DNA of 64,000 nt from a virus, in IMG/VR virus record IMGVR_UViG_3300047491_001507; one strand, given 5' to 3'. Shown here piece after piece: positions 24,146-29,600 of this stretch. The notes beneath the pieces are model-generated. The model was not told the DNA's origin. It saw only the letters and a list, made by a program, of their open reading frames with translations, and searched no databases. Each line of letters begins with the position of its first letter. Position 1 is the stretch's first letter. The translations under genes were made by a program, and so were the position numbers.

Positions 24146-24961
24146 ATGGGTTTAAATCGCAGAGATCTGTTGAAGGGATGTTTGTCGGCTCCGTTGCTTG
24201 GGTTTATGCCCAGTGTGGTAATTCCAGAGCGTATTTTTAAAGAAACGCCAAAGAAAAAGCCGACTATAAAAGAGATGATGCTTGCGTCTTTGAAGGAAAA
24301 TCAAGACAAATATCTTCCAAATAAAACGAAGATTTTGATGGATACCTTCAGTAAAACATGTTTGTTTGATGTGATTTCTGTACAAACGGCTGTTGGTGAC
24401 ACTGCGACTGCGTATTACGCAACTGTTAAAAATTCAAGACAATTTCCTCCTTACACTGATGATTGTACCGTTATTAGCTCAGAAACGACAAATATCAATC
24501 AAAAAATTCAATTAGAAAATATGGAACGTGAGGTCTTTGAGTACCTTCGGCAACGTGTGCAGGAAGTTCATGAATGGAATTTACACGATACCTATGGTAA
24601 TACTGGTAATACTGTAGGGACACAACTTTGTGGTCTTTGGGATAAAATTATAGAAGTATGTAATGTAATTCGCAGGAAAACATTGCGTCCTGAAAATTAT
24701 TGGATAATAGCTAAATCAGAAATAATATTGTGCATGCCATTTATATTTGAGTACAGAATGCAACATGGCGGGGATAAAATTGATCTTTACAGATTCGATG
24801 ACTTTCCTGCTGATGAAATCCTGATCGGATACAAAGGCGATAATTATATGGATTCTGGACTTGTATTTGCCCCAAGACACTTGGAGCAAGACAATTCGTT
24901 GGCTTATGGCATAAGCATGGTCGATCCAGATTATTATGCTAGAATTGTAATCACAAGATGA
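24146..24961 (+). CDS. twin-arginine (Tat) signal-bearing protein, paralog 1
   Basis: MGLNRRDLLKGCLSAPLLGFMPS: an S/N-R-R-x-L-L-K motif plus a hydrophobic h-region. Start moved to ATG 24146 with an AAGGA RBS. Confidence 0.45.
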   Translation: MGLNRRDLLKGCLSAPLLGFMPSVVIPERIFKETPKKKPTIKEMMLASLKENQDKYLPNKTKILMDTFSKTCLFDVISVQTAVGDTATAYYATVKNSRQFPPYTDDCTVISSETTNINQKIQLENMEREVFEYLRQRVQEVHEWNLHDTYGNTGNTVGTQLCGLWDKIIEVCNVIRRKTLRPENYWIIAKSEIILCMPFIFEYRMQHGGDKIDLYRFDDFPADEILIGYKGDNYMDSGLVFAPRHLEQDNSLAYGISMVDPDYYARIVITR

Positions 24962-24978
24962 TCTAGGGAAGAAAATTA

Positions 24979-25392
24979 ATGACTTATTACAAAGTTACCA
25001 CGACCAAACTAAAGAGCTTGGCAGTTTCTCAAAACTACCTTGCTCAAGATTTTGTTGTCACATATGAATTAAATGCCTGGGTATACCCAAAACACAAGCA
25101 AACCAAACTGTTTGTGTTCAATGATTACCAGTGTGCATTAGATTTTGCCCAAAATCAATCCCCTGATGATTATAAAATCTGGGAATGCGAAGTCCTTAAT
25201 CCTACTAAAGAATATGCTTTGTTCGTGGATGGCGTCTATAGTCGTGATTTTATTGGTAGATTGATAGATATGTTGGAATATGGCCCGCCCGCTTTGCCCT
25301 CTTTTTTTTACGACGAAGACGTTCCACCCCATACTGTCTTTGCTGATACCGTAAAACTTACTAAACTCGTTACTTTCCAAGGTGAAGAATGA
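24979..25392 (+). CDS. tandem-duplicate hypothetical protein, copy 1
   Basis: About 70% identical to the adjacent copy (M.YYKVTT.KL.SLAVSQN.LAQDFVVTYELNAWVYPKHK). Confidence 0.45.
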   Translation: MTYYKVTTTKLKSLAVSQNYLAQDFVVTYELNAWVYPKHKQTKLFVFNDYQCALDFAQNQSPDDYKIWECEVLNPTKEYALFVDGVYSRDFIGRLIDMLEYGPPALPSFFYDEDVPPHTVFADTVKLTKLVTFQGEE

Positions 25393-25835
25393 TTTATTAC
25401 AAAGTTACTACTGCCAAACTGGAGAGTTTGGCGGTTTCTCAAAACGGCCTTGCTCAAGATTTTGTTGTCACATATGAATTAAATGCCTGGGTATACCCAA
25501 AACATAAAAAAACCAAACTGTTTGTGTTCGATGATTACACTCAGGCATTACACTTTGCTCAAGATCAATCCTGTGATAATTATAAAATCTGGGAATGCGA
25601 AGTCCTTAATCCTACCACAGAATATAATCTGTTCATTCCTGTCGTCTATAGTCGTGATTTTGTTGATAAATTGAAAAATATGTTGATTGAAGGTTTTGTG
25701 CCAACAATTCGACTTTGGCTCCGACAACACCCCTCTACTGTCTTTGTTGATGCTGTAAAACTCACTAAACTTATTAGGTCTTTTGACGGCAATCTTGTTA
25801 GGTCTTTTGAAGATGAAGAAATGGCATTAACATGA
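25389..25835 (+). CDS. tandem-duplicate hypothetical protein, copy 2
   Basis: Paralog of 24979..25392; 4-nt overlap. Confidence 0.45.
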   Translation: MIYYKVTTAKLESLAVSQNGLAQDFVVTYELNAWVYPKHKKTKLFVFDDYTQALHFAQDQSCDNYKIWECEVLNPTTEYNLFIPVVYSRDFVDKLKNMLIEGFVPTIRLWLRQHPSTVFVDAVKLTKLIRSFDGNLVRSFEDEEMALT

Positions 25836-26053
25836 TCGAGTTAACTCAACAAGAAATCATTGATAGATTTGACTGTCAATCCAAATGTAGAATCAGCTAC
25901 ATGGGGAAAAAGACTAAAATTCTTGGACGATTATGGCAAGTTGACTGGAATAAATGTGTGGCTTTGACTATTTTATTTGATAGACCCAAAAGTTATTTAG
26001 TAGATGGAGATGAAGCAATTCGGGATGGAGTCCGAATTGTGGTGAAAAAATGA
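25832..26053 (+). CDS. hypothetical protein
   Basis: 73-aa ORF with a 4-nt overlap. Confidence 0.3.
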   Translation: MIELTQQEIIDRFDCQSKCRISYMGKKTKILGRLWQVDWNKCVALTILFDRPKSYLVDGDEAIRDGVRIVVKK

Positions 26054-26595
26054 ACAATCTTCAAAAGTTTTACTCGCTTTTAAATAAACTAAATGCCACG
26101 AATACCCTTGTTGAAAGAGCTAATAGTATTATTAGAAATTTAAACGAGAGTATTCCTAAATTAGTACAAATAGCAGCGGAAGATGCTAGAAATGGTCATC
26201 ATCCAAGTATTGACTTGCATGGATCGCAATGGAGATATCATTTAGGTAAAAATGTATGGTACGAGGCTGATGATCCTGCAATCGCTGCACAAGGAACAAG
26301 GTCTATAAAAGAATGCGTTTCTTTTAGCGATGCAAAACTTAATGCAGCTATGGACACTATTTATAAAACCATTGGCGATGATGTTCATAAAGCCATCGAT
26401 AAATGGTGGGAACATAACGATCCAGATGGGGACATATATGAACATATCGATAATATTCGTGTTGCTTTTAAAAGTAACAAAGTACAAAAAGCAATTTACG
26501 AAGAAGTGCGTAGGCGTGGACATTGTAAGTCTTGTGACGTAGAAATCAAAGTTGGGCGTCGTACTGTCTTGTATGGGTTTAATTATGGACATTAA
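26050..26595 (+). CDS. hypothetical protein
   Basis: 181-aa ORF that ends 2 nt before the tRNA. Confidence 0.35.
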   Translation: MNNLQKFYSLLNKLNATNTLVERANSIIRNLNESIPKLVQIAAEDARNGHHPSIDLHGSQWRYHLGKNVWYEADDPAIAAQGTRSIKECVSFSDAKLNAAMDTIYKTIGDDVHKAIDKWWEHNDPDGDIYEHIDNIRVAFKSNKVQKAIYEEVRRRGHCKSCDVEIKVGRRTVLYGFNYGH

Positions 26596-26597
26596 AA

Positions 26598-28261: not shown

Positions 28262-28557
28262 TGTTAATGAAATTATTTAAGAAGTGGTGGCGAACTGAGA
28301 CGTATAGTGTGGATATTATCAGAGCCCACTATGAATTTGGTATGACTCCTGACAAAAAGAAGTTTGACAATCTGGAGAATGCACTGAAGAGAATGATAGA
28401 ATTAGCAAACATGAACGAAGAGGATATCATTAAAGAGGTAGGTTTTGCTCCATCTTCTTTTAGGATTATAATGGTAATAGGCCCCAATCCTATAAGACGA
28501 TTTTTGAATGCCTGTGGCAGTAAACGGATGTATAGAATTGGCCCATTTAGAATTTGA
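28261..28557 (+). CDS. hypothetical protein
   Basis: 98-aa ORF. Confidence 0.3.
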   Translation: MLMKLFKKWWRTETYSVDIIRAHYEFGMTPDKKKFDNLENALKRMIELANMNEEDIIKEVGFAPSSFRIIMVIGPNPIRRFLNACGSKRMYRIGPFRI

Positions 28558-28563
28558 GATTGA

Positions 28564-28773
28564 TTGATGTGTAAAGATGATAATTTAGGTAATATTAAAG
28601 AATTTGTTTTGATTATGTTAGGGGTGCCAGTTATTCATGTCGAATTAGATGAGCGTTTATTTGATTTGGCTGTTGTTAAGACCTTAAAAAAACGTGGTCA
28701 AGATTACGAGACTTTTAAAGAAAACGTGTACAGAAACTACAAAAAACTTCTGTGGAAAGACAAGGGTGGATGA
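28564..28773 (+). CDS. hypothetical protein
   Basis: 69-aa ORF. Confidence 0.3.
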   Translation: MMCKDDNLGNIKEFVLIMLGVPVIHVELDERLFDLAVVKTLKKRGQDYETFKENVYRNYKKLLWKDKGG

Positions 28774-28774
28774 T

Positions 28775-28942
28775 ATGGATTTTGAAAAAGAATTAAAAGA
28801 ATTGATTAACAAGCACTCTATGGAAAATGGATCAGACACTCCAGATTTCATATTAGCTATGTTTCTGAAAAAATGTCTAGAAGCATGGAACGAGTCTGTA
28901 ACAAATAGAGAAAAATGGTACGGAAGGGCAAAAAATGAGTAA
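28775..28942 (+). CDS. small hypothetical protein
   Basis: Internal ATG (MDFEKELKEL) immediately after the upstream stop. The longer ORF-track version (28694) overlaps the previous gene. Confidence 0.25.
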   Translation: MDFEKELKELINKHSMENGSDTPDFILAMFLKKCLEAWNESVTNREKWYGRAKNE

Positions 28943-29600
28943 TTTAAATCGAAGAGATTTGTTGAAGGGTATTGTGGCATCGCCTTTGCTTGGGTTCATG
29001 CCAAGTCTTGGTATTGCTCCAAAATCTCCAAGATCCACGCAAACATTCCATGTTATGGAAGAATTGCAAAGTAGTCAATCTAGATTTATTCCCGCAGTAA
29101 GCATCAATGCGTTTTTTGGAGCTAATAGATTTAGAGAAAGAGACGTTTTTGTAACTAGCTATATCTTTTGTGGAACTAATTATATTATGGCTAGTCCAGA
29201 AATTGCCGAAATACTTCAATTATGTGATGGTTTTGTGCCTTCTAATGGACATGATGATGGTGTGGTTTCTAATGTTTGCAAGTATTTAGGAGTTATTAAA
29301 AACCAATGGTATTTTGGCTCTTTTGGTTCACCATATTATAACATGACAGATTGGCGATTGTATCAAGATCGCACTCTTTTATTTGGCAGCATTACAATGG
29401 GAGTTGTTTCAGGTGCTTATGAAAAATTCAAGAAAGATGTTGAAAAATACATTTTGCATACATTAGGGACGCCTGTTGATGAACAACTTGATCAAGCCAT
29501 TATTCAATCTATAGAAGATTGTAGTGAGCCTGATAAATTTTATTGTAGTTATTATCGTGAATTGATACAAAGAACGTATGCTAACTATTACAAGATTTAA
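28935..29600 (+). CDS. twin-arginine (Tat) signal-bearing protein, paralog 2
   Basis: MSNLNRRDLLKGIVASPLLGFMPSLG; the N-terminal 30 aa are paralogous to 24146..24961. Confidence 0.45.
   Translation: MSNLNRRDLLKGIVASPLLGFMPSLGIAPKSPRSTQTFHVMEELQSSQSRFIPAVSINAFFGANRFRERDVFVTSYIFCGTNYIMASPEIAEILQLCDGFVPSNGHDDGVVSNVCKYLGVIKNQWYFGSFGSPYYNMTDWRLYQDRTLLFGSITMGVVSGAYEKFKKDVEKYILHTLGTPVDEQLDQAIIQSIEDCSEPDKFYCSYYRELIQRTYANYYKI

What the first reader, a model, noticed from the sequence alone, without database searches (positions are those of the whole stretch)
24146..29600. Two paralogous twin-arginine-signal proteins bracketing a duplication-rich cassette region that contains the tRNA
24146..24961 and 28935..29600 both start M(G/S)xNRRDLLKG..SPLLGFMPS, a textbook Tat motif plus h-region; the mature parts are unrelated. 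Tat-exported phage proteins are unusual. Between and around them lie two paralog families. Family B has copies at 23339 and 27135. Family A has three copies at 26711, 27582 and 27923. There is also a tandem duplicate pair (24979/25389) and the tRNA-Tyr. The order B-x-x-Tat ... A-B-A-A-x-x-x-Tat suggests a segmental duplication followed by divergence. Both family B genes end with the same hairpin, AATTACTTCT...AGAAGTAATT, overlapping their stop.
Basis: seen in the sequence. Interest (0 to 1): 0.55.

Follow-up and report, generated by a model that had tools for sequence, protein, structure and literature searches.

The report
Capsid-protein offshoots carrying Tat-type signals
A variable island in a huge phage genome is filled with diverged copies of pieces of a T4-type major capsid protein, and two of them start with a twin-arginine export-type signal that is shared by a widespread family of capsid-derived proteins for which I found no published description.

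Summary

The two "Tat" proteins are not unrelated. Both are diverged derivatives of a T4-type (Gp23-family, HK97-fold) major capsid protein (MCP), and so are 30131-30637 and all three "family A" genes.
- **Tat2 and 30131-30637** keep only the C-terminal, A-domain-containing module.
- **Family A** is the MCP insertion domain as a stand-alone ORF (41% identity, E 2e-21 to a real MCP).

A search of 1.84 billion representative proteins found 166 representatives of such short MCP derivatives. Twenty-eight begin with RR plus an uncharged hydrophobic stretch, and the two arginines are the only invariant columns. Tat-signal HMMs hit 5-7 of the 28, but both window copies score below threshold and lack A-x-A.

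Best reading: these are real Tat-type export or anchor signals on capsid-derived domains. What the proteins do at the envelope is unknown.

Family B and the tandem pair remain unexplained ORFans. A single segmental duplication is not supported. A close relative phage lacks most of this stretch (about 23.9-29.9 kb).

The parts
24146..24961 (+). Tat1: 271-aa mini capsid protein. Residues 1-27 (24146-24226) are the twin-arginine signal-like peptide, with RR at 24158-24163. Residues ~40-271 form a complete HK97 fold that lacks the insertion domain.
28935..29600 (+). Tat2: 221-aa protein. Residues 1-28 (28935-29018) are the twin-arginine signal-like peptide, with RR at 28950-28955. Residues ~78-161 are the MCP C-terminal (A-domain) module. 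The ~60-aa C-terminal helical extension has unknown origin.
   Evidence: ORF. hhalign residues 78-161 match MCP 356-424, E 1.2e-5, probability 81%. Shared motifs NYIMASPEIAEIL and WRLYQD. AF2 is confident only for residues ~80-160 (mean pLDDT 65.7).
30131..30637 (+). 168-aa MCP C-terminal (A-domain) module with no signal peptide. It lies immediately upstream of the MVP-like gene.
   Evidence: BLASTP to Tat1, E 3e-5. hhalign residues 1-142 match MCP 304-420, E 3.5e-18. Orthologue and paralogue P0004 occur in the relative phage L048.
26711..27124 (+). Family A copy 1: stand-alone MCP insertion (I) domain.
   Evidence: The family A profile matches MCP columns 135-246, E 4.5e-20. Paralogy shown.
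27582..27920 (+). Family A copy 2: stand-alone MCP insertion domain.
27923..28261 (+). Family A copy 3 (GTG start): stand-alone MCP insertion domain.
   Evidence: BLASTP to L053 MCP residues 166-240: 41% identity, E 2e-21.
23342..23704 (+). Family B copy 1: 120-aa ORFan with no relation to the MCP. It has a 3'-terminal hairpin at about 23650-23693.
   Evidence: 65% identity to copy 2. In-frame indels. dN/dS 0.27. hhalign to the MCP, P 0.7. Hairpin -15.4 kcal/mol.
27135..27548 (+). Family B copy 2: 137-aa ORFan. Its hairpin at 27494-27537 ends 9 nt before the stop codon at 27546-27548.
   Evidence: (repeat I9).
24979..25835 (+). Tandem duplicate pair (24979-25392 and 25389-25835). These are ORFans with no relation to the MCP.
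   Evidence: 68% identity. 86% nt identity over 298 nt. dN/dS 0.63. hhalign to the MCP, P 0.05.
26598..26683 (+). tRNA-Tyr (anticodon GTA).
   Evidence: ARAGORN. Rfam tRNA 58.8 bits.
23924..29910 (+). Variable island: the stretch that a close relative phage lacks or has replaced.
   Evidence: In L048-L050 (79-94% nt identity), the orthologue of 23717-23974 is followed directly by P0004 and then by the orthologue of 30131-30637.

Best explanation
The interval is part of a fast-changing accessory island in a huge phage (contig about 306 kb). Much of the island consists of diverged duplicates of modules of a T4-type (Gp23-family, HK97-fold) major capsid protein.

Shown:
- Tat1 is a complete minimal HK97 fold without the insertion domain.
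- Tat2 and 30131-30637 keep only the C-terminal, A-domain-containing module.
- Family A (three copies) is the insertion domain alone.
- Tat1 and Tat2 carry a 27-28-residue N-terminal peptide (RRDLLK, then 17-18 uncharged residues).
- They belong to a large family of short MCP derivatives from mostly phage-like metagenomic contigs. In that family, the same kind of N-terminus occurs on many diverged members.

Inferred:
- The peptide is a working twin-arginine (Tat) signal.
- The host Tat machinery, which transports already folded proteins, delivers the capsid-derived domain across the cytoplasmic membrane. Where no signal-peptidase site exists, as in the two window copies, it leaves the domain anchored in the membrane.

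Guess:
- At the envelope the protein could exclude other phages or remodel the envelope.

Family B and the tandem pair are unrelated ORFans that share the island.
For: MCP origin:
- Pairwise BLASTP to a bona fide 481-aa MCP (L053): E 5e-19 for Tat1 and E 2e-21 for family A. That MCP matches T4 gp23 structures at E 4e-30.
- Profile comparisons: E 3e-16 (Tat1), 3.5e-18 (30131), 4.5e-20 (family A) and 1.2e-5 (Tat2). Fourteen other ORFs or families of the region give P 0.05-0.86.

Signal:
- In the window the motif occurs only twice.
- It is the most constrained part of the pair (dN/dS 0.15, dS about 1.1).
- AF2 leaves residues 1-30 outside the fold.
- The representative search gave 166 relatives. 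Twenty-eight have RR in the first 15 residues followed by an uncharged hydrophobic stretch (12-24 residues in 25 of them).
- In their alignment the two Arg are the only invariant columns.
- TIGR01409 matches 5 of 28 (best E 4.5e-6) and PF10518 matches 7 of 28. PF07068 Gp23 matches 21 of 28.
- RR and a hydrophobic N-terminus co-occur: 25 have both, 7 RR only, 3 hydrophobic only, 167 neither. Fisher p = 1.7e-22.
- Tat-type members are scattered over the A-domain tree. One (P0008) sits next to full-length MCPs, which implies repeated gain or module shuffling.

Location:
- These genes lie among small accessory genes, not beside the true MCP.
Against: - For the two window proteins, both Tat-signal HMMs are below their curated cut-offs, and the matches cover only the RR region.
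- Their h-regions are proline-rich (PLLGFMPS).
- Tat1 has no small-x-small cleavage site. In Tat2, G-I-A is followed by Pro.
- Only 6 of 28 relatives have a strict A-x-A.
- TatP and SignalP were not available.
- The host is unknown, so the presence of a Tat system is unverified.
- No experimental evidence for export exists.
- N-termini of HK97-fold capsid proteins normally point into the capsid and bind scaffold, so a capsid-internal role is conceivable.
- The phage's own full-length MCP was not recovered.
Confidence: 0.55

Rival explanations
1. The N-terminal peptide is not an export signal. It is a capsid-internal targeting, scaffold-binding or propeptide segment, like the T4 gp23/gp24 propeptides or the capsid-targeting sequence of T4 internal proteins. 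Tat1 and Tat2 would then be minor or vertex capsid components.
For: - Mini-MCPs that lack the insertion domain but keep a native MCP N-terminus lie next to true MCP genes in L051, L141 and L143.
- The window copies are below the Tat HMM thresholds and lack A-x-A.
- The N-terminus shows a loose, non-significant resemblance to MCP N-terminal motifs (RR..L..PLLG).
Against: - The resemblance to MCP N-termini is not significant (P 0.3-0.86).
- True MCP N-termini are highly charged, whereas these are uncharged for 12-24 residues.
- RR is invariant and tightly coupled to hydrophobicity.
- Tat HMMs match 5-7 relatives.
- A-domain-only members such as Tat2 cannot tile an HK97 lattice.
- The genes are not in a structural module.
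Confidence: 0.2
2. The MCP-derived proteins act in the cytoplasm as capsid-protein mimics. They could be decoys for host defences that sense capsid protein, dominant-negative subunits against competing phages, or oligomerisation modules. The RR peptide would only tether some of them to the membrane.
For: - Most family members, including 30131-30637 and P0004, have no signal.
- The same A-domain module is fused to MerR-type HTH domains in P0030 and P0085. The module is therefore used in cytoplasmic contexts.
- The family shows modular shuffling of I- and A-domains.
Against: - This does not explain why RR is invariant, or why hydrophobic N-termini occur almost only together with RR.
- A positive-inside N-terminal anchor would place the domain outside the cytoplasm.
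- There is no direct evidence for any defence or competition role.
Confidence: 0.15
3. The island is decaying debris of partial gene duplications. The Tat-like motif is a chance feature with no function.
For: - The region is hypervariable and absent from a close relative.
- The tandem pair has relaxed constraint (dN/dS 0.63).
- Tat1 has no close homologue outside this phage in 5.8 billion proteins.
Against: - All ORFs are intact, with plausible ribosome-binding sites.
- dN/dS is 0.15-0.58 despite saturated dS.
- AF2 gives a confident complete fold for Tat1.
- The same signal-plus-domain architecture recurs in 28 clusters that are less than 50% identical, over GC contents of 31-63%.
Confidence: 0.05

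Closest known systems
T4 major capsid protein gp23 and vertex protein gp24 (Pfam PF07068 Gp23; HK97 fold)
   Same: - Tat1, Tat2, 30131-30637 and family A show sequence homology to Gp23-type MCPs.
- gp24 is itself a diverged paralogue of gp23 with a specialised role (established knowledge).
   Different: - These proteins are much shorter: 112-271 aa against about 480-520 aa.
- The insertion domain is absent from Tat1 and exists as separate ORFs.
- Tat2 and 30131 keep only the C-terminal module.
- The N-terminal propeptide region is replaced by a twin-arginine signal-like peptide.
- The genes lie in an accessory island among small ORFans, not with portal, protease or scaffold genes.
Bacterial twin-arginine (Tat) signal peptides (TIGR01409, PF10518)
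   Same: - An RR-x-[FLAV]-[LI]-K n-region is followed by a moderately hydrophobic, uncharged h-region (mean Kyte-Doolittle 1.4-1.5 in the window copies), and basic residues follow.
- Several relatives reach the HMMs, and some have A-x-A.
   Different: - The signals are encoded by a phage and attached to a capsid-protein fold.
- The window copies are sub-threshold for both HMMs and lack a canonical signal-peptidase site, so they may stay membrane-anchored, as Rieske-protein signals do.
Encapsulin shell proteins (minimal HK97 fold, about 265 aa)
   Different: - There is no match to the encapsulin (Linocin_M18) family by sequence, whereas the sequence is clearly of Gp23 type.
- Encapsulins are cytoplasmic and have no signal peptide.
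- No cargo gene or cargo-loading peptide was identified here.
Satellite-encoded capsid-protein homologues and capsid-size redirecting proteins (e.g. SaPIbov5 Ccm)
   Different: Those proteins co-assemble into capsids in the cytoplasm and carry no export signal. In this locus the encoder is itself a huge phage, and some derivatives are single domains.
Phage envelope-acting superinfection-exclusion proteins (T4 Imm and Sp, T5 Llp)
   Same: The resemblance is only in the proposed mode of action: phage-encoded proteins sent to the membrane or periplasm by an N-terminal signal (established knowledge).
   Different: There is no sequence or fold relationship. Those proteins use Sec or lipoprotein signals. 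An exclusion function here is a guess.

Membership tests
Gp23-type major capsid protein family (PF07068, HK97 fold) | Significant sequence match to family members or the family profile | tested here: met
   - The Pfam score for Tat1 is just under the cut-off (21.8 vs 24.4 bits).
- Pairwise BLASTP to a bona fide MCP gives E 5e-19, and profile-profile comparison gives E 3e-16.
- Family A: E 2e-21 and 4.5e-20.
- 30131: E 3.5e-18.
- Tat2 is weaker: E 1.2e-5, probability 81%.
Gp23-type major capsid protein family (PF07068, HK97 fold) | Complete HK97 fold (N-arm, E-loop, P-domain with spine helix, A-domain) | tested here: met
- Not met for Tat2, 30131-30637 or family A, which are single modules.
Gp23-type major capsid protein family (PF07068, HK97 fold) | T4-type insertion domain within the same polypeptide | tested here: not met
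   MCP profile columns 135-246 are missing from Tat1, Tat2 and 30131. They occur only as the separate family A ORFs.
Gp23-type major capsid protein family (PF07068, HK97 fold) | Functions as the capsid shell subunit and is encoded with portal, protease and scaffold genes | tested here: not met
   - Neighbouring genes are ORFans, a tRNA, helicases and sugar-modifying enzymes.
- No Tat-type copy lies within 3 kb of 80 true MCP genes.
- Incorporation into virions cannot be tested here.
Tat (twin-arginine) signal peptide | Twin-arginine consensus in the n-region ((S/T)-R-R-x-F-L-K) | tested here: met
   Both window copies read N-R-R-D-L-L-K. RR is invariant in 28 relatives.
Tat (twin-arginine) signal peptide | Uncharged, moderately hydrophobic h-region of about 12-20 residues directly after the motif | tested here: met
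   The h-regions have 17 and 18 uncharged residues, with mean Kyte-Doolittle 1.54 and 1.41. Coupling of RR with a hydrophobic N-terminus across the family gives Fisher p = 1.7e-22.
Tat (twin-arginine) signal peptide | Score above the curated cut-off of TIGR01409 or PF10518 | tested here: not met
   - Tat1: 13.3 bits (cut-off 16.7) and 12.5 bits (cut-off 22.7).
- Tat2: no TIGR01409 hit, and 14.3 bits (cut-off 22.7).
- Among the 28 relatives, 5 (TIGR01409, best E 4.5e-6) and 7 (PF10518) match at E <= 0.01.
Tat (twin-arginine) signal peptide | c-region with an A-x-A type signal-peptidase site | tested here: not met
   - Tat1 (PSVVIPE) has none.
- Tat2 has G-I-A followed by Pro, though S-L-G|I is possible.
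- Strict A-x-A occurs in 6 of 28 relatives, for example P0005 AGA|T and P0140 AGA|S.
- Uncleaved Tat signal-anchors do exist (established knowledge), so this does not exclude Tat targeting.
Tat (twin-arginine) signal peptide | Tat-dependent translocation in a host that has TatA and TatC | not testable with these tools
   - The host is unknown.
- The only GenBank phages carrying the neighbouring MVP-like gene are uncultured huge phages (LR756500, LR756501, LR756503).
- No TatP or SignalP run and no experiment was possible.
Encapsulin shell protein | Sequence membership in the encapsulin (Linocin_M18) family, with an associated cargo carrying a loading peptide | tested here: not met
   The Pfam scan of Tat1 returns only Gp23. 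Encapsulins are structural matches only. No cargo candidate was identified.

The most novel reading that the evidence does not exclude
Huge phages repeatedly fit modules of their own HK97-fold capsid protein with twin-arginine signals and send them, already folded, through the host Tat pathway. Tat1 is a complete minimal HK97 subunit, so the exported protein could form capsomer-like rings or a capsid-like lattice outside the cytoplasm. Alternatively it could act at the envelope against competing phages. More broadly, the MCP A-domain and insertion domain would be free-standing building blocks reused with Tat signals, MerR HTH domains and other N-terminal modules. Capsid-protein domains would then be a toolkit for non-structural functions.
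Probability: 0.35. Interest if true: 0.85.

Novelty: new variant of a known kind. Interest (0 to 1): 0.66.

Why it matters
HK97-fold capsid proteins are regarded as cytoplasmic shell builders. Known offshoots, such as encapsulins, gene transfer agents and satellite capsid proteins, still build cytoplasmic shells.

This locus shows a phage keeping several non-shell derivatives of its capsid protein, split into single domains. It led to a family of 166 representative clusters, of which about one in five carries a Tat-type signal. If export is real, it is a new destination and presumably a new function for the most widespread viral fold. It would also be a rare case of a phage using the host Tat pathway.

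The result is practical for annotation too. These ORFs score near or below the Pfam Gp23 threshold. They can be mistaken either for ORFans or for 'the' capsid gene of a metagenomic phage.

The claim can be tested directly with signal-reporter fusions and RR-to-KK mutants.

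Tried and rejected
- **Family B as a non-coding RNA or mobile element.** Rejected: indels are all multiples of 3, similarity is confined to the ORF, dN/dS is 0.27, and there is no Rfam hit.
- **26050-26595 as another MCP piece.** A weak hint with the first MCP profile (P 0.003) vanished with the closer profile (P 0.79).
- **The RR peptide as a remnant of the MCP N-terminus or N-arm** (KW.PLLEG or VRR..L...SVQPLLG motifs). 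Not significant: P 0.3-0.86.
- **Alternative genetic code joining the fragments into one gene.** Rejected: TAA, TGA and TAG are all used as stops (44, 27 and 15 times), long ORFs are intact, and adjacent family A genes are in different frames.
- **A conserved link with the MVP-like gene.** The 36 relatives of the MVP-like gene have no MCP fragment and no RR motif within 10 kb. Other Tat-type relatives have no SPFH neighbour. Only L045 does.
- **Lipoprotein signal.** Rejected: the Cys in Tat1 directly follows the RR motif, and Tat2 has none.
- **Bacterial homologues.** None were found in 185,579 reference genomes.
- **Recovering the phage's own MCP.** The contig is not in IMG/VR and is not among the best 80 of 254 metagenome MCP loci.
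- **Literature.** No paper describes a Tat signal on a capsid-like protein.
- **PHROGs, PADLOC-style or other annotation for family B and the tandem pair.** PADLOC was not run. Pfam and PHROGs gave nothing.

Full report
**Setting.** The window is part of a huge phage.
- The Tat1 protein is recorded on a 306,208-bp JGI contig.
- The window carries a DnaB-type helicase, a family A DNA polymerase, a UvsX/RecA-like recombinase and other helicases.
- All three stop codons are in use, so the code is standard.
- The finding lies in a run of tightly packed, same-strand small genes. This run sits between a helicase (19905-21824) and a 901-aa Major-Vault-Protein-like gene (30642-33347; PF11978 MVP_shoulder, E 1e-19).

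**Checking the observation.**
- The two ORFs begin MGLNRRDLLKGCLSAPLLGFMPS and MSNLNRRDLLKGIVASPLLGFMPS.
- A Tat-like motif occurs nowhere else in the six-frame translation of the 64 kb.
- All-against-all BLASTP confirms family B (E 1.5e-54), family A (9e-21 to 5e-7), the tandem pair (3e-59) and the shared N-terminus of the two Tat proteins (E 2e-9).
- The tRNA-Tyr is real.
- Family B is coding, because its indels are 9, 18, 3 and 27 nt.
- All pairs have dN/dS below 1. The shared N-terminal peptide is the most constrained part (0.15, with synonymous sites near saturation).

Three details fail.
- The hairpin in family B is modest (about -16 kcal/mol, z about -2) and ends 9 nt before the stop codon.
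- The genes between B and Tat in the two supposed units are unrelated, and the spacings differ by 1 kb. One segmental duplication is therefore not shown.
- The mature parts are not unrelated, as the next section shows.

**What the proteins are.**
- Pfam gave a near-threshold Gp23 (T4 major capsid protein) hit for Tat1.
- Scanning IMG/VR with the paralogues retrieved full-length Gp23-type MCPs of 465-499 aa. One of them matches T4 gp23 structures at E 4e-30.
- Against a profile of seven of these MCPs:
  - family A matches columns 135-246 (E 4.5e-20);
  - Tat1 residues 119-270 match 298-478 (E 3e-16);
  - 30131-30637 matches 304-420 (E 3.5e-18);
  - Tat2 residues 78-161 match 356-424 (E 1.2e-5);
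  - fourteen other ORFs or families of the region, including family B and the tandem pair, give P 0.05-0.86.
- Plain pairwise BLASTP agrees. Family A copy 3 is 41% identical to MCP residues 166-240 (E 2e-21). Tat1 is 34% identical to residues 297-433 (E 5e-19).
- With a 150-sequence alignment, AlphaFold2 models Tat1 at pLDDT 87 and pTM 0.81, leaving residues 1-30 disordered.
- Tat1 is thus a complete minimal HK97 fold. It is complete without columns 135-246, so that segment is the accessory insertion domain of T4-type MCPs. Family A is that segment as a free-standing ORF.
- The Tat2 model is confident only over the conserved core, so its assignment rests on the profile match and shared motifs.

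**A larger family.** Word-based searches found almost nothing.
- Tat1 found only itself.
- With the three paralogues aligned, two more proteins appeared: P0004 and P0005. P0005 (208 aa) begins MLTRRDLLKSAAVTGLLGVVPSVAGA and continues with the same C-terminal module.
- An exhaustive HMMER search of 1.84 billion representatives gave 166 proteins at E <= 1e-3. Most are 125-400 aa long.

Mapping these proteins onto the MCP profile shows three architectures:
- mini-MCPs lacking the insertion domain;
- insertion domain plus A-domain;
- A-domain alone, with varied N-termini. These include MerR-type HTH domains, and both Pfam models are above threshold in P0030 and P0085.

**Is the N-terminus a Tat signal?**
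- Twenty-eight of the 151 retrieved proteins have RR within the first 15 residues followed by an uncharged hydrophobic stretch, 12-24 residues long in 25 of them.
- In their alignment the two arginines are the only invariant columns. The h-regions differ freely in sequence.
- PF07068 matches 21 of the 28, PF10518 TAT_signal matches 7, and TIGR01409 matches 5 (best E 4.5e-6).
- Hydrophobic N-termini occur almost only together with RR: 25 have both, 7 RR only, 3 hydrophobic only, 167 neither. Fisher p = 1.7e-22.
- On a rough neighbour-joining tree of the A-domain, the RR-bearing members are scattered. One sits beside full-length MCPs, which points to repeated gain or shuffling. The tree is not robust.

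Against this:
- The two window copies score below both curated thresholds.
- Their h-regions are proline-rich.
- They lack a canonical cleavage site.
- Only 6 of 28 relatives have a strict A-x-A.
- TatP and SignalP could not be run.

My reading is that the family-level evidence makes a real Tat-type signal the most likely explanation (about 0.55). The window copies may be uncleaved anchors.

**Genomic behaviour.**
- A close relative phage (L048-L050, 79-94% nt identity) has the orthologue of 23717-23974 followed directly by P0004 and then the orthologue of 30131-30637. It therefore lacks about 23.9-29.9 kb of the window.
- The contexts of other RR-bearing relatives are short, mostly phage-like contigs with GC of 31-63%. 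One (L045) also carries a Mur-ligase-like gene fragment.
- None of 80 true MCP genes has such a gene within 3 kb.
- The island is therefore accessory and fast-changing.

**Function.** Nothing here shows what the exported domain does.
- The Tat route suits a domain that folds in the cytoplasm.
- An envelope-level role, such as exclusion of other phages or envelope remodelling, is a guess.
- The neighbourhood of sugar-modifying enzymes is weak context at most.

The rivals are:
- a capsid-internal targeting or propeptide role (0.2);
- a cytoplasmic capsid-mimic role (0.15);
- decaying duplicates (0.05).

**Novelty.** Four literature searches found no description of Tat signals on capsid-like proteins, nor of free-standing MCP domains in huge phages. 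The fold, the MCP family and Tat signals are each well known, but I found no prior description of their combination or of the modular dispersal. I rate it a new variant of a known kind.

Noticed in passing
window 30642-33347 (+) (ATG at 30696): A 901-aa Major-Vault-Protein-like protein (PF11978 MVP_shoulder, E 1e-19) with a long C-terminal coiled coil. Relatives (35-56% identity) occur in 36 IMG/VR huge-phage contigs. In GenBank phages they occur only in the uncultured huge phages LR756500 (462 kb) and LR756501/LR756503 (735 kb). Its neighbours are not conserved.
   Followed up: partly
window 30131-30637 / 30642-33347; locus L045 628-2025 / 2188-2814: The signal-less MCP A-domain gene sits directly upstream of the MVP-like gene. 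In the unrelated contig L045, the RR-bearing A-domain protein P0005 sits directly downstream of a membrane SPFH/Band_7 protein (27.8 bits, above cut-off). The MVP shoulder domain is SPFH-like. These are two independent adjacencies, unexplained and not seen in other relatives.
   Followed up: partly
window 16140-19888 (+): Four adjacent paralogous genes (385, 318, 321 and 197 aa) are built from tandem 59-60-aa repeats (177-180 nt units). The repeat motif is ENKKLLLEMAK.GEPRP...KLG.AL.NYT...YDPEF...IR.LAP.WF. The genes are 50-74% identical to each other (E down to 1e-121). There are no informative family hits.
   Followed up: partly
proteins P0030, P0085 (also P0095, P0106, P0112, P0115), from the representative search: The MCP A-domain module is fused to an N-terminal MerR-type helix-turn-helix domain. 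Both PF13411 and PF07068 score above threshold in P0030 and P0085. A capsid-protein domain therefore appears to be reused in DNA-binding proteins.
   Followed up: partly
proteins P0073, P0082, P0123, P0147: Another A-domain subgroup shares an N-terminal motif (..FL..L...P.....RLVYA). From memory, it resembles the TIGR02996 'repeat-companion' N-terminus of Planctomycetes and Myxococcus proteins. This was not tested.
   Followed up: no
window 33429-38024, 48700-50625 and 59036-60580: A cluster of sugar-modifying genes: sulfotransferase-like (33429-33980), DegT/DnrJ aminotransferase (36320-37459), GNAT acetyltransferase (37461-38024), a GT2+GT9 fusion glycosyltransferase (48700-50625) and a TPR-containing protein with glycosyltransferase-like PHROG hits (59036-60580).
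   Followed up: no
loci L051 11233-12081 (-), L141 4568-5530, L143 4526-5509: Mini-MCPs that lack the insertion domain but keep a native MCP-like N-terminus lie next to, or within 3.4 kb of, the true MCP gene. They may be the vertex (gp24-like) proteins of these phages.
   Followed up: no
window 23650-23693 and 27494-27537: Both family B genes contain the same AT-rich hairpin, 9-10 nt upstream of the stop codon (-15.4 and -16.0 kcal/mol, z about -2). It is not followed by a T-run, so it is not a typical terminator. Its role is unknown.
   Followed up: partly
window ~11800-12400: Gene orientation and GC skew both switch sign here: minus-strand replication genes lie to the left and plus-strand genes to the right, and the cumulative GC skew has its minimum near 12 kb. 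This could be a divergent promoter region or a replication origin.
   Followed up: no
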